A stretch of DNA of 45,053 nucleotides, taken from sequence record PQ659294.1; one strand, 5' to 3'. The notes under the pieces are model-generated. The model was not told the origin of the DNA and did no database searches. It saw only the letters and a list, made by a program, of their open reading frames with translations. Position numbers and translations under genes: made by a program. Positions 2,529 to 17,797 of the stretch are shown piece after piece. The DNA is from Escherichia phage vB_ecoS_OzMSK. Numbering within the stretch: the first letter of the stretch is position 1; the number at the start of each line of letters is the position of its first letter.

Positions 2529-2754
2529 TTCTAAATGTTGATTTTGCAAGCTCCAGAGCTTGTAATATTTTGGATTCCGACGCGGCATGAAGTTGATTGC
2601 TGTAGTAAACGAACGCGGAATCCTCACAGTTAAATAACCGAAGACTGGCGTGCATATGCACGTAAAAGAAAATGGCGGAAGAGTTTTTATCAGATCAATG
2701 TCTGGTGAAACAATGGTAGCATCCTCAAAAATATAAGTACAAGGCGAATAAGAA

Positions 2755-2898
2755 ATGATTTACATCCATACATACTACACTGGTAAGTTTAACAGCGTTA
2801 AGCACGTTCGAGTGTACGAGGGGTTTCATAAAGCATTTGAGCAGCAGAGGGTTCTTGGTGGAACTATTAAGTGGTGTGAAGTTGTCAAAGAATGCTAA
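2755..2898 (+). CDS. possible small protein (~47 aa)
   Basis: ORF below the track cutoff; start context gaataagaaATGATTTAC resembles the paralog trio starts; stop in motif copy 2. Confidence 0.25.
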   Translation: MIYIHTYYTGKFNSVKHVRVYEGFHKAFEQQRVLGGTIKWCEVVKEC

Positions 2899-2942
2899 AT
2901 AGCACGAATTGCTAAACGCAGTCGCCACGGATGGCATATAAT
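2897..2942 (+). promoter_or_regulatory. class-A promoter-like cassette (motif, then TATAAT at 2937..2942)
   Basis: Consensus motif and -10-like hexamer at the conserved spacing. Confidence 0.5.
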
Positions 2943-2972
2943 TACCCAGTCAACACAAAGAGAGATTGAGAA

Positions 2973-3143
2973 ATGTTAACGATAATGATGACTAACCTTG
3001 AGTTAAATGAATTCAGCATTCTAGCTTTTATTATGCCAATACTGCTAATTCTTCCATTCGCTGCGTACGTCGTAATGAAAGATAATGCAGAGTGGAAGCG
3101 GATTGATAAGAAAATCAAAGAAGCAACGCACAGGAATAAGTAA
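2973..3143 (+). CDS. small membrane protein (56 aa, one hydrophobic helix)
   Basis: ORF below the track cutoff; sits at the conserved distance after the cassette leader; hydrophobic segment FSILAFIMPILLILPFAAYVV. Confidence 0.35.
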   Translation: MLTIMMTNLELNEFSILAFIMPILLILPFAAYVVMKDNAEWKRIDKKIKEATHRNK

Positions 3144-3144
3144 A

Positions 3145-3384
3145 ATGTTCGGACTAAATGAAGCTATGTTTAATGCAGTAAAGCGCCAGGCTAAAAAGCT
3201 CAACGATAAGTATGAGTCATTAAGCAAGCTTGACCGCAAGAATGATAAGTTAGTTGCGGGTATAATCACTGAGATTTGGCAACCAGTTTCTACAGTTATT
3301 AGCAGGGATCGATTTGTGTGGGTAGCCGGGTATCTCAAAGGTCGAGTTGGTCATGACGAGAATGGGAATAGCCTTTATGAGTGA
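3145..3384 (+). CDS. hypothetical protein (79 aa; ATG at 3145 within track ORF 3085..3384)
   Basis: TAAAATG stop-start junction with the upstream small ORF; basic N-terminal region. Confidence 0.4.
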   Translation: MFGLNEAMFNAVKRQAKKLNDKYESLSKLDRKNDKLVAGIITEIWQPVSTVISRDRFVWVAGYLKGRVGHDENGNSLYE

Positions 3385-13094: not shown

Positions 13095-13751
13095 ATGGCT
13101 CATCTCAGCAATGGCACGCAGGTCTTCGTAGAAGGCTCTCGCGGTGACACAATTGATGTAACTGCAATTTCTAACGCAGCTACCCCTGTTTTAACTGTAT
13201 CTGACGCCTCTGGCTTGGTTGTTGGTGATTACCTGCTTTTCACCTCATCGGCCTCTACACTTCTGGCTGACAAGCAAGTACGAATTACTGCAATTTCTGG
13301 CACTTCGGTAACAGTTGAAGGTATTGATACCTCCAACACCACTAAGTTCCCTGCTGGCTTAACTGGTGAAGTTGTTAAGATTACTTCATGGTTCGAAGTC
13401 CCGTGTGTTCAGGACGTATCTACTGACGGCGGCGAACAGCAGTTTGTTAACTTCCAGTGCCTTTCTGATGACCGCGAACAGCAGATTCCGACTTATAAAT
13501 CTGCGGTAACAAACACCTTCACCTTTGCTCACGAGTACACCAACCAGGTCTATCCGGTTCTGCGTAACTACGATGAGTCTGGCCAGGTTGTCGCGATTCG
13601 TCTGTTCGTACCTCGCGCTCAGGAAATGCGTTTGCAGTCCGGCACTATCACTTTCAACGACACCCCTACCATTGGTGTTAACGAGATCGAAACGGTATCC
13701 ATCGCAGTATCAATTCGTGGTCGCCTGTCCTCTGTAGCAGCTGAAGTTTAA
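13095..13751 (+). CDS. major tail protein
   Basis: 218-aa Thr/Ser/Val-rich ORF followed by a strong terminator; precedes chaperone pair and tape measure. Confidence 0.65.
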   Translation: MAHLSNGTQVFVEGSRGDTIDVTAISNAATPVLTVSDASGLVVGDYLLFTSSASTLLADKQVRITAISGTSVTVEGIDTSNTTKFPAGLTGEVVKITSWFEVPCVQDVSTDGGEQQFVNFQCLSDDREQQIPTYKSAVTNTFTFAHEYTNQVYPVLRNYDESGQVVAIRLFVPRAQEMRLQSGTITFNDTPTIGVNEIETVSIAVSIRGRLSSVAAEV

Positions 13752-13757
13752 AACACA

Positions 13758-13779
13758 AACCCTCTTCGGAGGGTTTTTT
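13758..13779 (+). terminator. rho-independent terminator (AAACCCTCTTCGGAGGGTTTTTT)
   Basis: GC hairpin with TTCG loop and T-run. Confidence 0.7.
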
Positions 13780-13784
13780 ATTGC

Positions 13785-13860: not shown

Positions 13861-14109
13861 ATGAATAACGTTAAAAACATCATCAAACTTGCTGCAGTTC
13901 TTGTTGCTTTTTATGCAGTAGTTCAGATTGTTAACCCAACTGGCGAGGCTGATGCCAATAGCAAGGCAAACAAATATACCGTTGAGTTCGCTAAAGCTGA
14001 GCGAGCATGCCAGGAGCTTGTGGGTAGTAAAGTTGACCAAATCATGAAATATGGCAAAGAGGTCTGCAAGGACTCAGCTGCTAAGATTGCAAAAGAAAAC
14101 ACTAAGTAA
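13861..14109 (+). CDS. small secreted or membrane-anchored protein (82 aa); moron candidate inside the tail module
   Basis: N-terminal hydrophobic segment IIKLAAVLVAFYAVVQIV; own promoter-like cassette and upstream terminator; AT-rich flank. Confidence 0.5.
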   Translation: MNNVKNIIKLAAVLVAFYAVVQIVNPTGEADANSKANKYTVEFAKAERACQELVGSKVDQIMKYGKEVCKDSAAKIAKENTK

Positions 14110-14148
14110 TAGAATACATACTCACAAACAATAAGAGGATTAACTAAG

Positions 14149-14463
14149 ATGGCTAAGTTCAAACTTTCACTGGCAGCACTCCCTGACTTCAAGCTTCCGG
14201 TAAAATTCAAGCTGGCTAACGACCAGGATGTAGAGGTTATCTTTACAGTCAAGCATAAGAAAACATCTGAGCTTCAGGAGCTTTTGCAGAAAGAAGACTT
14301 GAGTACTAAAGAATTGATTATGGCAATCGCCTCTGATTGGGATTTGGAAGAAGAATACAACGAGGATAACGTTAATGAGTTCTCCGACCTGTTCCCAGCG
14401 TCAACAGTTGCACTGACTACCGCTTACATGCAGGCACTGGCAGGCCAGCGGGTAAAAAACTAA
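14149..14463 (+). CDS. tail assembly chaperone (lambda G-like)
   Basis: 104-aa acidic ORF immediately upstream of tape measure; ends with slippery heptamer A_AAA_AAC then TAA. Confidence 0.65.
   Translation: MAKFKLSLAALPDFKLPVKFKLANDQDVEVIFTVKHKKTSELQELLQKEDLSTKELIMAIASDWDLEEEYNEDNVNEFSDLFPASTVALTTAYMQALAGQRVKN
14454..14460 (+). promoter_or_regulatory. candidate -1 programmed frameshift site (A_AAA_AAC)
   Basis: X_XXY_YYZ heptamer in the zero frame two codons before the G stop; the -1 frame is open into ORF 14472..14783. Confidence 0.55.
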
Positions 14464-14471
14464 AGAGGGCG

Positions 14472-14783
14472 GTGTATCTACAGTACCAGTCAGATCCAAC
14501 AGATGCCGAACTGGAAGCTATTGGGATGCGCCGCTCTGATTACGAAGACGAAGAGCCTGAAGTTTTGCACTTCGACGATAACATGATGAAGGCGTGGGAC
14601 ATTTATTGTTCAATGGCGACACAGTGGAGAGTCGGAGCCAACGGACCAACGGGCCTAGATTACAACGTGCTAAATTTCCTCTTTAGAGTGTATAATGTTT
14701 CTGAAGAGGAATTGGTACTCAGCGATTTACGCATCCTTGAAGCTAAGGCTCTCGAGATGATGGATAACCTGATAAAAAAATAA
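14472..14783 (+). CDS. tail assembly chaperone T-like extension (probably made as a G-T fusion by -1 frameshift)
   Basis: ORF in the -1 frame relative to G, no convincing independent RBS, followed by terminator and tape measure. Confidence 0.5.
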   Translation: MYLQYQSDPTDAELEAIGMRRSDYEDEEPEVLHFDDNMMKAWDIYCSMATQWRVGANGPTGLDYNVLNFLFRVYNVSEEELVLSDLRILEAKALEMMDNLIKK

Positions 14784-14806
14784 CCCGCTTCGGCGGGTTT
14801 TCTATT
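14782..14806 (+). terminator. terminator-like hairpin (AACCCGCTTCGGCGGGTT + TTCTATT)
   Basis: GC hairpin with TTCG loop; weak T-run. Confidence 0.45.
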
Positions 14807-14818
14807 ATGGAGGCTTAG

Positions 14819-17797
14819 ATGGCAACAAATGAATTAGCTGGAATCACACTAGCCGTAGACGTCTCGCAGGTAGACAGAGGTACGCAGTCCCTGCAGAAGT
14901 TCAGGCAGGCAAACCAGCAAGCCGCTTCCGGCATTAGTGAGTTCGTCAATGCTGAGCAGGTTGCTAAAAACCAGGCTAGAGATACCGCTCGCGCACTTGC
15001 TGAGCAACAAGCATCTTTAGCTAAATTGCAAACGGCTATTGACCCAACTGCGGCAAAGTTCCGTAAGCTGCAAGAGGCAGCGGTGGGTCTTGATAAGGCG
15101 TTTGCTGCTGGCGTAGTTCCTGATGAGGAGTTTTTCCGCTTAGGTGAGGCACTTGAAACGCAGAACGCAAAACTTGCTCGATCACGTGCAGCGCTAACTG
15201 AAGAGGGTAGGGCAGCAGCTCAAGCCGCAAAGGATAAGGCAAAGGCAAAGGCTGAAGCTGATAGGTTCATTGCGTCACTTGAGCGTCAGGCTCAGGCGGC
15301 AACATTGACGCGTGAGGAGTACTTAAAATTACAGGCTGCTCAGCTTGGCGTAAGTTCTCAGGCAGCGCCTATTATTGACAGAATCGCCGATGCATCACAG
15401 AAGGCAAACACCCAGCTAATTGCTCAGAGCAAGGCATTTCAACGCTCTGGATTAAGCGCGGGTCAATACAAGGCTGCAATCTCTCAATTGCCAGCGCAGA
15501 TTACAGACATTGGGACATCACTTGCTGGCGGCATTCCGATTTGGCTTATTGCAATTCAGCAAGGCGGGCAAATTAAGGATGCATTTGGAGGTATTGGTAA
15601 CACCTTTAGATTCGCGCTAGCAGCCTTAAATCCATTCAATGTTGCTGTTGGGGTTTTGGGTGGCGCGCTTGTTGCTCTAGGTATCGGTGCTGCCCAGGCA
15701 GAGAGTGAATTCAGAGCATTAAATTCTGCCATTGCGTTCTCAAACAACTCCACAATCGCATCAATCTCGCAGGTTAGAGATTTGGTTAGCTCTGTTTCTG
15801 ATGCTACTGATGCAACCAGAGGACTTGTGACTAGCATCGCAACAAGCCTTATTGAGCAAGGGAACCTTACGCTGACGCAGATTGACAAGATTACTAAATC
15901 TACCGCCAGATGGGCGCAGTTGACAGGTAAGGATGCAAAGGAAATTACTGGTTACTATAACCAGATTGCGAGCGACCCAATTCAAGGACTTGCTGATTTA
16001 GACAAGAGGTTTAACTTCCTTACACAGGGGCAGTTAACAACAATTGAAAGATTGAGAGAGACTAGGGGTGAGGTTGAAGCCGTAACTGCTGCTATTGATA
16101 TATTTAGCAAATCACAGGAGGCAAACCTTAACGATATTGCAGCCCAGCTTACTCCTCTTGAATTGGCCTGGAATGACTTCAGGAAGTACATATCTGATGT
16201 ATGGGATGCAATTAGTCGCAGAACGGTTGGGGCGCTAAACCTGTTTGTTGACGTAATCGCCGGAACAATTGAGCAAATTAGGGTCTTCATCAACCAGGGT
16301 GATGTGCTGATTGGTGAATTCGTAATTAGCGCAACACAGGCACTGCAGAACATCCCCGGCCTTGATGGTGTTGGTGATGATGTTATCAAGGGGCAGCAGA
16401 AGATTATCGATGCAGCTAAGAAGCAAAACATTGAGCTAGAGAAGTCTATCAAGGAGCGCGATGCCAGAATCAGAGAAGGAGAACTTGGTTACGTTACTCG
16501 CAGAGAAAATCAGAATACCAATGAGCAGTCAGGCACTGATGAGGAGTTTGCAAAAAGGAAGAAAGCACTTCAGGATGAACTTGATGCGATCAAGAAGAAC
16601 AGGAAAGAAGAAAATGGTAGGGTTAAAGAGCAAAGAGACCTTACAATTGGTTACGAATCTGGCGTACTTGCACTACAGGCACAACTCAAGGTGCTTCAGG
16701 AAAACAGGGATATTGGCGCAGTAATAAGCAATGAGCGCAAGCAGTATCTTCAGGAGGAGGCTAAATTCAGGATTCTTGAGCAGAGGCAACTTGATGGCTC
16801 AATTACCAAAGAGCAAGCAAGGCTTCTAATTGAAAAGGATAAAGTTCTTGCACTCGCAAGGCAGAAAGCTGAGTTAGGCGATCAGATTGTTTTGCAGGAG
16901 CGCGCCAATAAGTTAGCTGAAGATAACCGCAAGAAGATTCTTCAGATTAACAACGAAGCAAGCAATATTAATTTGGGGGCTGGTTTGTCATCTCGCGAGC
17001 AGCAGAGGGCAAGAGAGATTCAGGCTCTCCAGTCCAATCAGGTTAATGCTGGTGGCTCTCTTGATGATTTTGATTTTCAGCAATTACTGGAAGCAAGAAA
17101 GGAATACTACAAGCAGGAGGATAATCTTAGGTCTGATTGGCAAGCTGGCGTAACATCAACGCTTGCAGACTTGGCTGAGAAATATACAGACTACAATCAG
17201 ATAGCTAAGGATTTAACTGTTGCGGCATTCGATGGAATTACAGACCAGATTACAAACCTTGTAACCACTGGTGAGACCAACTTCAGGGAGTTCACCGCAA
17301 ACATCCTCAAAATGATTGCGAAGATTGCAACTCAGTTACTTTTGGTTAAGGCCATCGAATCAACATTGACTAGTTTTGGTGGTGGAGGAGGTAACGCGTT
17401 TGGCTCAATTGCTTCCGGGTTAGGTTTCGCTGGTGGCGGCTACACTGGTGATGGTGGAAAATATCAGCCAGCAGGAACGGTACACCGAGGTGAGTTTGTA
17501 TTCACAAAAGAAGCGACAAGCAGAATTGGTGTGAAAAACCTTTACGCACTAATGAAAGGTTACGCGAATGGCGGTGTTGTTGGTGGCCCTTCTGGTTATG
17601 CGAATGGTGGATTGGTTTCTGGAGGCGCAGATGTTAATGTTAGCGGGATTACTGTTAGCGTTAATAGTGGGATTGGAAGCAACCCAGAGCAGGCCAAGGC
17701 GCTGCAAAATGGCGTTAAGGCAATCGTAGCTGAAGAGATTGCTCAGTCATTCCAGCAGGGGGGCAGAGCTTATCAGTACCTTCGCGGATTCAACTAA
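14819..17797 (+). CDS. tail tape measure protein
   Basis: 992 aa; long Ala/Gln/Glu-rich predicted coiled coil, hydrophobic central segment, Gly-rich C-terminus; precedes M-L-K-I-J. Confidence 0.9.
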   Translation: MATNELAGITLAVDVSQVDRGTQSLQKFRQANQQAASGISEFVNAEQVAKNQARDTARALAEQQASLAKLQTAIDPTAAKFRKLQEAAVGLDKAFAAGVVPDEEFFRLGEALETQNAKLARSRAALTEEGRAAAQAAKDKAKAKAEADRFIASLERQAQAATLTREEYLKLQAAQLGVSSQAAPIIDRIADASQKANTQLIAQSKAFQRSGLSAGQYKAAISQLPAQITDIGTSLAGGIPIWLIAIQQGGQIKDAFGGIGNTFRFALAALNPFNVAVGVLGGALVALGIGAAQAESEFRALNSAIAFSNNSTIASISQVRDLVSSVSDATDATRGLVTSIATSLIEQGNLTLTQIDKITKSTARWAQLTGKDAKEITGYYNQIASDPIQGLADLDKRFNFLTQGQLTTIERLRETRGEVEAVTAAIDIFSKSQEANLNDIAAQLTPLELAWNDFRKYISDVWDAISRRTVGALNLFVDVIAGTIEQIRVFINQGDVLIGEFVISATQALQNIPGLDGVGDDVIKGQQKIIDAAKKQNIELEKSIKERDARIREGELGYVTRRENQNTNEQSGTDEEFAKRKKALQDELDAIKKNRKEENGRVKEQRDLTIGYESGVLALQAQLKVLQENRDIGAVISNERKQYLQEEAKFRILEQRQLDGSITKEQARLLIEKDKVLALARQKAELGDQIVLQERANKLAEDNRKKILQINNEASNINLGAGLSSREQQRAREIQALQSNQVNAGGSLDDFDFQQLLEARKEYYKQEDNLRSDWQAGVTSTLADLAEKYTDYNQIAKDLTVAAFDGITDQITNLVTTGETNFREFTANILKMIAKIATQLLLVKAIESTLTSFGGGGGNAFGSIASGLGFAGGGYTGDGGKYQPAGTVHRGEFVFTKEATSRIGVKNLYALMKGYANGGVVGGPSGYANGGLVSGGADVNVSGITVSVNSGIGSNPEQAKALQNGVKAIVAEEIAQSFQQGGRAYQYLRGFN

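What the first reader, a model, noticed from the sequence alone, without database searches (positions are those of the whole stretch)
14149..14783. Tail chaperone pair with a canonical A_AAA_AAC -1 slippery heptamer
The G-like ORF ends ...CGG GTA AAA AAC TAA. The heptamer A_AAA_AAC (14454..14460) is in the zero frame two codons before the stop, and the -1 frame is open from there into the 103-aa downstream ORF, which lacks a convincing RBS of its own. This matches the conserved G/GT programmed frameshift of tailed phages.
Basis: partly seen in the sequence, partly recalled or inferred. Interest (0 to 1): 0.45.

Follow-up and report, generated by a model that had tools for sequence, protein, structure and literature searches.

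The report
Phage tail chaperone G/GT frameshift site
This is the ordinary programmed -1 ribosomal frameshift that lets a T1/Rtp-like coliphage make a short and a long tail-assembly chaperone from one message; it is real and well conserved, but it is a known feature of tailed phages.

Summary
The window is Escherichia phage Msk (MW057918, an Rtp-like Drexlerviridae). ORF 14149..14463 (Pfam Phage_TAC_4) ends CGG GTA AAA AAC TAA, and A_AAA_AAC (14454..14460) is in the zero frame, abutting the stop. ORF 14472..14783 (DUF1799) lies in the -1 frame, which is open from 14379. The pair sits between the tail tube gene and the tape measure gene.

Comparison of 52 distinct junctions from relatives supports the frameshift reading:
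- The heptamer's first A is invariant (52/52), while neighbouring four-fold codons use all four bases.
- The -1-frame residues L-K-R-A-V-Y-L, which begin inside the G stop codon and lie upstream of the GTG, are conserved with synonymous changes.
- GTG 14472 is only a Val codon: it is GTG in 8 of 52 junctions and GTT/GTA/GTC in the rest.
- In phage jat a -1-frame stop abuts the heptamer, which pins the shift site there.

Msk also has a stable hairpin (14466..14537, -31.5 kcal/mol, z -4.2). It starts 5 nt after the heptamer and buries the weak SD-like motif and the GTG. Relatives pair the same 5' arm with different partners.

The fusion is already annotated in sibling phages (Stevie, Sparks, Silvanus, CPT-T1), but not in Rtp-like records. 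I found no experimental data for this family. The finding is of low novelty.

The parts
13095..13751 (+). Major tail (tube) protein gene, the upstream neighbour that defines the G/GT context
   Evidence: Pfam Phage_tail_3 E 7.8e-67
14149..14463 (+). G-like tail assembly chaperone ORF (104 aa), the zero-frame product
   Evidence: Pfam Phage_TAC_4 E 3.2e-33 over its full length; phrog_569 and phrog_17368. SD AAGAGGA lies 9 nt before the ATG.
14454..14460 (+). Slippery heptamer A_AAA_AAC in the zero frame; proposed site of the -1 shift
   Evidence: It is the only in-frame X_XXY_YYZ in G. AAAAAAC ends 51 of 76 distinct related G-T sequences and the final codon is AAC in 41 of 52 distinct junctions. 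It is also present in Silvanus, jat and Susuwatari at 28-30% identity. The first A is invariant in 52/52 junctions.
14461..14463 (+). G stop codon TAA, immediately 3' of the heptamer; its last two bases plus 14460 form the first -1-frame codon CTA (14460-14462)
   Evidence: A stop abuts the slip site in all 52 junctions (TAA 50, TGA 2).
14460..14783 (+). -1-frame T extension (107 codons plus stop). Fused to G it gives a predicted 211-aa GT protein reading ...QRVKN|LKRAVYLQ...
   Evidence: Translation. Pfam DUF1799 E 1.8e-16. phrog_17368 (213 positions) spans both G and T. LKRAVYL is conserved with synonymous variation.
14464..14474 (+). SD-like AGAGGG plus GTG 14472 (the mechanical ORF start); judged not to be a functional initiation site
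   Evidence: The spacer is 2 nt, against 4-9 nt for the SD-bearing genes of the module. This codon is GTG in only 8 of 52 relatives and otherwise GTT/GTA/GTC. Both motifs lie in the 5' arm of the hairpin.
14466..14537 (+). Predicted 72-nt stem-loop beginning 5 nt 3' of the heptamer; candidate frameshift stimulator
   Evidence: MFE -31.5 kcal/mol, z -4.2, 0 of 200 shuffles as stable. RNAalifold gives 24 pairs kept in 9 distinct Rtp-like sequences, with 3 one-sided changes and 0 compensatory. Third-codon-position variability is 1/16 in the core stems against 32/80 in the rest of T.
14782..14807 (+). Terminator-like hairpin plus T tract between T and the tape measure gene
   Evidence: Terminators are annotated at the same place in Stevie and Silvanus.
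14819..17797 (+). Tape measure protein gene, the downstream neighbour
   Evidence: Pfam TMP_2 E 8.8e-49 and Tape_meas_lam_C E 6.9e-17

Best explanation
Most ribosomes translating the chaperone gene of phage Msk terminate at TAA 14461 and release the 104-aa G-like chaperone. A small fraction slip back one base on A_AAA_AAC (14454-14460). In that event tRNA-Lys re-pairs from AAA 14455-57 to AAA 14454-56, and tRNA-Asn from AAC 14458-60 to AAA 14457-59. Those ribosomes then read CTA AAG AGG GCG GTG... in the -1 frame to 14783, producing a 211-aa G-T fusion.

The slip is probably helped by the adjacent stop codon and by a stable hairpin (14466-14537) that starts 5 nt downstream. The same hairpin also occludes the vestigial SD/GTG, so T is not made on its own.

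By analogy with lambda gpG/gpGT, G and the G part of GT would coat the tape measure protein, and the T part would recruit the tail tube protein. The low slip rate would then set the G:GT ratio.

- **Shown here:** the anatomy of the site, its conservation, and coding constraint in the -1 frame from the stop codon onward.
- **Inferred:** that the slip occurs at all, its efficiency, the role of the hairpin, and the functions of the proteins.
For: 1. **Site geometry.**
2. **Context and families.** Tail tube gene, then Phage_TAC_4, then DUF1799 in the -1 frame, then tape measure gene.
3. **Synonymous-site constraint on the heptamer (52 distinct junctions).** Codon -3 is GTA or GCA, with third base A in 52/52. 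Flanking Arg, Ala and Gly codons use all four third bases. Codon -2 is AAA 48 / AAG 4. A stop always follows.
4. **Coding constraint in the -1 frame before any start codon.** L-K-R-A-V-Y-L begins at base 14460. It is conserved while its codons vary synonymously: Arg AGG 18, CGG 20, CGA 3, CGC 8; Ala all four codons; Val GTG 8, GTT 30, GTA 6, GTC 8.
5. **No conserved start for T.** Outside the Rtp-like group, the first start codon in the T frame lies 20-122 nt downstream, inside conserved sequence, or well upstream inside G. In one junction, a probable sequencing-error outlier, there is none at all.
6. **Shift site pinned in a relative.** In Dhillonvirus jat a -1-frame TGA abuts the 5' side of the heptamer, so the shift can only happen on it.
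7. **Existing fusion annotations.** Joined CDSs of the length expected for a -1 fusion are annotated in Stevie, Sparks and Silvanus. The Silvanus note cites a 'CPT-T1 tape measure chaperone frameshift product'. phrog_17368 spans both halves.
8. **Hairpin.**. The same 5' arm is paired with probability above 0.9 in most lineages, but with different 3' partners: +32, +26, +35, and +70 in Msk.
9. **Literature.** A_AAA_AAC is a weak but used -1 motif in E. coli, proven for IS1 (PMC4066793). Lambda G:GT is about 30:1 and the G-T frameshift is widespread (PMC5009743).
Against: - There is no protein-level evidence for Msk or, as far as I could find, for any Drexlerviridae. The MSK paper (PMC8421802) does not mention it. 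GT would not be expected in virions, so virion proteomics would not detect it.
- A_AAA_AAC is among the low-efficiency heptamers in E. coli (PMC4066793).
- The hairpin has no compensatory covariation within the genus. It is broken in the AHP42-like clade and absent in a few T1-like genomes, so it is not essential family-wide.
- Other stretches of T also show low synonymous variability.
- Some relatives (GCA AAG GTC; GCA AAA GTT) keep only an A_AAR tetramer. The conserved event may therefore be a single P-site tRNA-Lys slip rather than a tandem slip.
Confidence: 0.88

Rival explanations
1. There are two independent genes. T is translated on its own from GTG 14472 using the AGAGGG motif, and no fusion is made. 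This is how the Rtp, IME253, FP and ZL19 records are annotated.
For: the ORF listing gives a GTG-started 103-aa ORF. An SD-like AGAGGG with -6.3 kcal/mol duplex energy precedes it. Several GenBank and RefSeq records annotate two separate CDSs.
Against: - The SD ends 2 nt before the GTG, too close for efficient initiation; the SD-bearing genes here have spacers of 4-9 nt.
- The SD and the GTG are both inside a -31.5 kcal/mol stem.
- The motif is not conserved even within the genus (AACGAGCG in Rtp).
- The codon is GTG in only 8 of 52 junctions.
- Residues LKRA upstream of the GTG are under protein-coding constraint in the -1 frame.
- T1, Stevie and vojen have no start codon there at all.
- Annotators disagree on the start: BEK6 uses an internal ATG.
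Confidence: 0.04
2. The fusion is made, but by transcriptional slippage. RNA polymerase would add an extra A in the A6 run (14454-14459), giving an mRNA in which G and T are in one frame.
For: A homopolymeric A6 run overlaps the site. The product would have almost the same size and sequence (…VKKLKRA…).
Against: - Known productive slippage sites use longer runs, roughly 9 or more A/T (general knowledge; reviewed in PMC5009743).
- Relatives retain the same two-frame architecture with only A4 (GCA AAA GTT) or A3 (GCA AAG GTC), where polymerase slippage is not plausible.
- The zero-frame register of the heptamer and the adjacent stop are conserved. Both matter to ribosomes, not to RNA polymerase.
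Confidence: 0.04
3. The outcome is the same -1 ribosomal frameshift and GT fusion, but the event is a single P-site slip of tRNA-Lys on A_AAA, before or without tRNA-Asn accommodation. The junction would then read …VKK|LKRA…, and the heptamer's last three bases would be incidental.
For: The only element common to all 52 junctions is A_AAR. The final codon is AAC in 41, GTT in 6, GTC in 4 and GCC in 1. tRNA-Lys(UUU) is notably shifty in E. coli, and A_AAG and A_AAA tetramers are used by IS elements (PMC4066793).
Against: AAC is kept in 41 of 52 junctions, and in relatives as distant as Silvanus, jat and Susuwatari. In Sharma et al. (PMC4066793), the heptamer format greatly outnumbers the tetramer format among known IS frameshift sites.
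Confidence: 0.3
4. The arrangement is a chance juxtaposition or an assembly error. Either the A-run length was miscalled and G-T is really one ORF, or the heptamer is incidental.
For: Homopolymer miscalls do occur. Three IMG/VR relatives (L043, L092, L094) show A5 at this site together with other frame breaks.
Against: More than 50 independently sequenced genomes show A6 with the same two-frame layout. The window is 100% identical to the GenBank record. Synonymous-site conservation is specific to the heptamer.
Confidence: 0.01

Closest known systems
Tape measure chaperone frameshift of T1-like phages (CPT annotations of T1, Citrobacter phage Stevie KM236241, Klebsiella phage Sparks PQ358943, Stenotrophomonas phage Silvanus MZ326867)
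   Same: The proteins are orthologous (44-58% identity for Sparks and Stevie, about 30% for Silvanus). The gene order is the same. Stevie and T1 have the identical motif [GTA/GCA] AAA AAC TAA abutting the stop. The fusion length matches (210-213 aa), and a terminator follows T.
   Different: - Msk and the other Rtp-like phages have lost the compact GGGCGG…CCGCC hairpin of the T1, Tls and Hanriver groups. They pair the same 5' arm with a partner about 60 nt further on, giving a 72-nt hairpin.
- They alone have a GTG at the Val codon, which makes gene callers emit a separate T ORF.
- Rtp-like records do not annotate the fusion.
Bacteriophage lambda gpG/gpGT (Levin 1993; Xu, Hendrix & Duda 2004, 2013, 2014; reviewed in PMC5009743)
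   Same: There are two ORFs between the tail tube gene (V) and the tape measure gene (H). The second is in the -1 frame without its own start. A slippery heptamer with a Lys codon lies near the end of G. The presumed role is a chaperone pair made at a fixed ratio.
   Different: - Lambda uses G_GGA_AAG starting 22 nt before the stop; Msk uses A_AAA_AAC abutting the stop.
- The protein families differ: Phage_TAC_2 and Phage_tail_T in lambda against Phage_TAC_4 and DUF1799 here.
- BLASTP finds no significant similarity.
- The lambda proteins are larger (140 aa and 144 aa).
IS1 insA-insB' -1 frameshift on A_AAA_AAC
   Same: It uses the same heptamer in E. coli. It is a proven low-efficiency -1 frameshift that produces a fusion protein (PMC4066793).
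   Different: IS1 has no established stimulator (PMC4066793). It makes a transposase rather than a phage chaperone, and the proteins are unrelated.
E. coli dnaX and IS911/IS3-type -1 PRF signals
   Same: They consist of a heptamer of A and a Lys codon plus a downstream stem-loop or pseudoknot at a short spacer.
   Different: Those use the efficient A_AAA_AAG heptamer, and dnaX also has an upstream SD-like stimulator. Here the heptamer ends in C, no upstream SD-like element was seen, and the SD-like motif lies downstream inside the stem.

Membership tests
Tailed-phage G/GT tail assembly chaperone frameshift (Xu, Hendrix & Duda 2004) | Two small ORFs located between the major tail (tube) gene and the tape measure gene | tested here: met
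   MTP 13095..13751 (Phage_tail_3), G 14149..14463, T 14472..14783, TMP 14819..17797 (TMP_2). An extra 82-aa ORF lies between MTP and G.
Tailed-phage G/GT tail assembly chaperone frameshift (Xu, Hendrix & Duda 2004) | The second ORF is in a shifted (-1) frame that is open across the end of the first ORF, and it lacks a conserved start of its own | tested here: met
   The -1 frame is open from 14379 to 14783. The start codon is not conserved: GTG in 8 of 52 junctions. The SD spacer is 2 nt.
Tailed-phage G/GT tail assembly chaperone frameshift (Xu, Hendrix & Duda 2004) | A slippery sequence in the zero frame near the 3' end of G, conserved among relatives | tested here: met
   A_AAA_AAC at 14454-14460. 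AAAAAAC ends 51 of 76 distinct related G-T sequences, and the final codon is AAC in 41 of 52 distinct junctions, with first base A in 52/52. It is also present in relatives at 28-30% identity.
Tailed-phage G/GT tail assembly chaperone frameshift (Xu, Hendrix & Duda 2004) | The upstream ORF is a tail assembly chaperone protein | tested here: met
   Pfam Phage_TAC_4 E 3.2e-33, full length
Tailed-phage G/GT tail assembly chaperone frameshift (Xu, Hendrix & Duda 2004) | A fusion protein is actually made at a low, fixed percentage and is required for tail assembly; G binds the tape measure protein and T binds the tube protein | not testable with these tools
   This needs protein detection and genetics. 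I found no such data for Msk or any Drexlerviridae.
Lambda gpG / gpT protein families (Pfam Phage_TAC_2 PF06894, Phage_tail_T PF06223) | Sequence membership in those Pfam families | tested here: not met
   Msk G matches Phage_TAC_4 and Msk T matches DUF1799. Lambda G and T match PF06894 and PF06223. BLASTP gives E 1.3 and 0.03, with only short motifs aligned.
Canonical -1 PRF signal (X_XXY_YYZ, 5-9 nt spacer, downstream structure) | A heptamer in the correct register | tested here: met
Canonical -1 PRF signal (X_XXY_YYZ, 5-9 nt spacer, downstream structure) | A stable downstream structure at a 5-9 nt spacer, supported by evolution | tested here: inconclusive
   - The hairpin 14466-14537 has a 5-nt spacer, -31.5 kcal/mol and z -4.2.
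- It is maintained in 9 distinct Rtp-like sequences, but with 0 compensatory pairs.
- Synonymous variability is suppressed in the stems: 1/16 against 32/80, p about 0.009. This test is post hoc and the sequences are not independent.
- Other clades pair the same 5' arm with other partners, and some have no hairpin.
Transcriptional (RNA polymerase) slippage sites | A long homopolymeric A/T run (about 9 or more) | tested here: not met
   The run is A6 here, and A4 or A3 in relatives with the same architecture.
Rfam frameshift elements or any curated RNA family | A covariance-model match at or above the gathering score | tested here: not met
   Only two sub-threshold chance hits (22.8 bits against a cut-off of 90; 21 against 56) in 14350-14850

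The most novel reading that the evidence does not exclude
The frameshift itself is ordinary, but its cis-signal appears to be evolving in a compensatory way across Drexlerviridae and their relatives. The same 5' arm (GGGCGG, +4 to +9 after the stop) is kept paired, but with at least four different 3' partners.

- Rtp-like phages, including Msk, replaced the compact hairpin with a 72-nt long-range one that also silences a fortuitous SD/GTG.
- The AHP42/Sf12-like clade lost the hairpin altogether, and most of its members switched to A_AAG_GUC, which places the shift-prone A_AAG tetramer (Lys AAG) at the site.

If real, this would be a natural series showing a trade-off between slip-site strength and stimulator strength that holds the G:GT ratio constant.
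Probability: 0.3. Interest if true: 0.3.

Novelty: already known. Interest (0 to 1): 0.13.

Why it matters
The practical value is in annotation. The Msk record is unannotated. Rtp-like GenBank and RefSeq records list two separate CDSs, often mislabelled 'tail length tape measure protein', where there should be a G CDS plus a joined G-T ribosomal-slippage CDS. The T domain (Pfam DUF1799, still 'hypothetical') can be named as the T part of a tail assembly chaperone.

Biologically it adds one more well-supported case of the widespread G/GT recoding. It also offers a small, testable series of related signals (heptamer plus hairpin variants) that could be used to study how frameshift efficiency is tuned in E. 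coli phages.

It does not open a new question.

Tried and rejected
- **PDB sequence search with the fusion protein:** no hit at E <= 1, so no solved homologue to anchor function.
- **Rfam scan of 14350-14850:** only chance sub-threshold hits.
- **Covariation for the Msk hairpin:** the Rtp-like genus is too uniform, giving 0 compensatory pairs. I extended the test to the AHP42-like sister clade by hand (inference from the sequences). The pairs there are broken rather than compensated, so the hairpin is genus-specific.
- **One common register for a family-wide hairpin:** rejected, because the 3' partner differs between clades (+26, +32, +35, +70).
- **IMG/VR loci L043, L092, L094 (A5 run) and L095:** I considered them as possible natural hard-wired variants. 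I rejected this because they carry several other frame breaks and look like homopolymer sequencing errors.
- **Literature:** the MSK paper (PMC8421802) and the TLS re-annotation (PMC11447400) say nothing about the chaperones or a frameshift. I could not reach Xu et al. 2004 or the T1 genome paper in the library, so whether T1 was in their original table is not verified here.

Full report
**Identity of the window.** The window is 100% identical over the tested 2.5 kb to Escherichia phage Msk, MW057918.1. That record is 45,053 bp, the same length as the window but circularly permuted, and it is unannotated in the collection. The closest annotated relatives are Rtpvirus IME253 and Rtp (Drexlerviridae, Braunvirinae).

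**Check of the observation.**
- ORF 14149..14463 (ATG, 104 aa) ends CGG GTA AAA AAC TAA.
- The heptamer A_AAA_AAC lies at 14454-14460 in the zero-frame register X_XXY_YYZ. It is followed directly by the stop at 14461-14463.
- ORF 14472..14783 (GTG, 103 aa) is in the -1 frame. That frame is open from 14379, with no potential start codon before 14472.
- It is the only in-frame slippery heptamer in the G ORF.
- AAAAAAC is rarer in the window than in shuffles: 6 against 12.6.
- A -1 slip would give a 211-aa fusion reading ...AGQRVKN|LKRAVYLQYQ....

**What the genes are.**
- The upstream ORF is a full-length Pfam Phage_TAC_4 tail assembly chaperone (E 3e-33).
- The downstream ORF is DUF1799 (E 2e-16).
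- They lie between the tail tube gene (Phage_tail_3, 13095..13751) and the tape measure gene (TMP_2, 14819..17797). A tail terminator lies upstream and a minor tail protein downstream.
- PHROG 17368 is a 213-position profile. It matches G over positions 1-107 and T over 113-209, so the family was built from fused products.

**Comparative evidence for the frameshift.** A tblastn search with the fusion finds 1,150 phage records. In nearly all of them the match is split into two pieces.

I collected more than 100 loci from IMG/VR and GenBank. They reduce to 52 distinct junction sequences. Four results matter.

1. *The heptamer's first base is constrained at a synonymous site.* The codon before the Lys is GTA (29) or GCA (23), so its third base is A in 52/52. 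The neighbouring Arg, Ala and Gly codons use all four third bases. The Lys codon is AAA in 48 and AAG in 4. The final codon is AAC in 41, and a stop always follows immediately.
2. *The -1 frame is under protein-coding constraint from the G stop codon onward.* The residues L-K-R-A-V-Y-L begin with base 14460, inside the G stop codon region and upstream of the GTG. They are conserved while their codons vary synonymously: Arg AGG/CGG/CGA/CGC, Ala all four codons, Val GTG 8 / GTT 30 / GTA 6 / GTC 8. No start codon precedes these residues in the -1 frame, so only ribosomes arriving from G can translate them.
3. *GTG 14472 is just one synonymous form of a conserved Val codon.* Outside the Rtp-like group, the first start codon in the T frame is 20-122 nt further downstream, inside conserved sequence, or well upstream inside G.
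4. *The site persists in very distant relatives.* Stenotrophomonas phage Silvanus, Dhillonvirus jat and Serratia phage Susuwatari share only 28-30% identity with Msk, yet all have A_AAA_AAC followed by a stop. In jat a -1-frame TGA abuts the 5' edge of the heptamer, so the shift can only occur on it.

**The putative independent start.** An SD-like AGAGGG at 14464-14469 does precede the GTG. The duplex ends 2 nt before the start codon, whereas the SD-bearing genes of this module have spacers of 4-9 nt. The motif is not conserved within the genus (AACGAGCG in Rtp). Annotators disagree on the start of T: BEK6 uses an internal ATG equivalent to 14526.

**Downstream structure.**
- The 72 nt at 14466-14537 fold into a long hairpin of -31.5 kcal/mol, with z -4.2 and 0 of 200 shuffles as stable.
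- It begins 5 nt after the heptamer, which is the canonical spacing for a -1 stimulator.
- Its 5' arm contains both the SD-like motif and the GTG.
- In 9 distinct Rtp-like sequences all 24 consensus pairs are kept. There are three one-sided changes (G·U to A-U, U-A to U·G, G-C to G·U) and no compensatory change.
- Third-codon-position variability is 1/16 in the core stems against 32/80 in the rest of T (Fisher p about 0.009). This test is post hoc, the sequences are related, and other low-variability stretches exist.
- Across the wider family the same 5' arm (+5 to +9 after the stop) is paired with probability above 0.9 in most lineages. The 3' partner differs: +32 in T1, Tls, Hanriver, Silvanus and jat; +26 in Webervirus; +35 in Susuwatari; +70 in Rtp-like phages including Msk.
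- The arm is largely unpaired in the AHP42/Sf12-like clade and in a few others. Most of the AHP42/Sf12-like members have also replaced the heptamer by A_AAG_GUC, though at least one (L019) keeps A_AAA_AAC.

I therefore regard a stimulatory hairpin as plausible and lineage-specific in form, but unproven.

**Mechanism.** The best-supported reading is the standard one: a low-frequency -1 ribosomal slip on A_AAA_AAC yields G-T.
- Sharma et al. (PMC4066793) classify A_AAA_AAC as a low-efficiency heptamer in E. coli that is nevertheless used by IS elements, including the proven IS1 case. This fits a chaperone pair needed at a skewed ratio, about 30:1 in lambda (PMC5009743).
- Some relatives retain only A_AAA_G or A_AAG_G. 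A single P-site tRNA-Lys slip is therefore a live sub-variant. It predicts …VKKLK… at the junction instead of …VKNLK….
- Polymerase slippage is unlikely, because the run is A6 here and A3-A4 in relatives with the same architecture.

**Comparison with what is known.** The arrangement works like lambda G/GT. Lambda, however, uses G_GGA_AAG starting 22 nt before its stop. Its proteins belong to other Pfam families (Phage_TAC_2 and Phage_tail_T) and show no significant BLASTP similarity to Msk G or T.

The true orthologues are the 'tape measure chaperone' pairs of T1-like phages. The Center for Phage Technology already annotates the joined frameshift product for Stevie, Sparks and Silvanus, and the Silvanus note refers to a CPT-T1 frameshift product. 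[quoted passage not shown]

Rtp-like records annotate two separate CDSs. The MSK paper does not mention the chaperones.

**Verdict.** The feature is a standard, already recognised recoding site, so novelty and interest are low. The modest additions made here are:
- the codon-level proof that the -1 frame is read from the stop codon onward;
- the demonstration that GTG 14472 is not a conserved start;
- the lineage-specific long hairpin.

All functional claims remain inferences until the fusion protein is detected.

Noticed in passing
window 13757-13784 and 14782-14807: Terminator-like GC hairpins with T tracts bracket the chaperone genes, one just after the tail tube gene and one just after the T stop, before the tape measure gene. 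Terminators are annotated at the same places in Stevie, and after GT in Silvanus. This suggests transcriptional attenuation helps set tube : chaperone : tape measure stoichiometry.
   Followed up: partly
window 14087-14115: A sigma-70-like promoter match (TTGCAA, 17 nt spacer, TAGAAT; 9 of 12) lies just upstream of the G start. It is a consensus match only; the region holds 1 site against 2.4 expected in shuffles.
   Followed up: no
window 13861-14109: An 82-aa ORF is inserted between the tail tube gene and G. It has no Pfam hit and matches phrog_22925 (unknown function, E 1e-55). It is present in Rtp-like phages but not at this position in Stevie, vojen or Sparks. Its SD is weak.
   Followed up: partly
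L001 (NC_047810) 2651-3285; L005 (NC_007603) 401-1035; L118: The G and T homologues are labelled 'tail length tape measure protein' in RefSeq and pharokka-style annotations. The label apparently comes from the names of PHROGs 569, 680 and 17368. It is a misnomer for the chaperones, and the ribosomal-slippage join is missing.
   Followed up: partly
L015-L018, L020 (AHP42/Sf12-like) around 1304-1315; L006 and L096-L114 (Webervirus): Two clades lack a canonical heptamer at the orthologous site, with GCA AAG GTC TAA and GCA AAA GTT TAA. Only the A_AAR tetramer is common to all, which points to tRNA-Lys P-site slippage as the conserved core. The AHP42-like clade also lacks the adjacent hairpin.
   Followed up: partly
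L043, L092, L094 (IMG/VR UViGs) at about 1100: These genomes have GTAAAAAC (A5) instead of A6 at the slip site, and other frame breaks in G or T. They are most likely homopolymer sequencing errors rather than natural variants.
   Followed up: partly
L122 (Escherichia phage jat, Dhillonvirus) about 850-870; L121; L123: Relatives at 28-30% protein identity keep A_AAA_AAC plus a stop, followed by a GGCGG…CCGCC hairpin whose arms encode conserved Ala-Ala/Val and Pro-Pro. In jat a -1-frame TGA directly abuts the heptamer. Neither the jat nor the Susuwatari record annotates the fusion.
   Followed up: partly
L116 (Escherichia phage BEK6) 1527-1784: The T homologue is annotated from an internal ATG (equivalent to window 14526) instead of the GTG. 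This shows that gene callers find no consistent start for T.
   Followed up: no
L120 (MG065688 'Campylobacter phage A110b', UNVERIFIED); 21 'Campylobacter' records: Records named as Campylobacter phages are about 94% identical to Rtp-like coliphages. They are probably coliphage contaminants or misattributed hosts.
   Followed up: no
window 14649-14684 against lambda T (L124 1378-1413): The only similarity between Msk T (DUF1799) and lambda T is a short motif, TGLDYNVLNFLF against SGLTYTVLSLFF (single-comparison E 0.03). This may hint at distant homology of the T domains.
   Followed up: no
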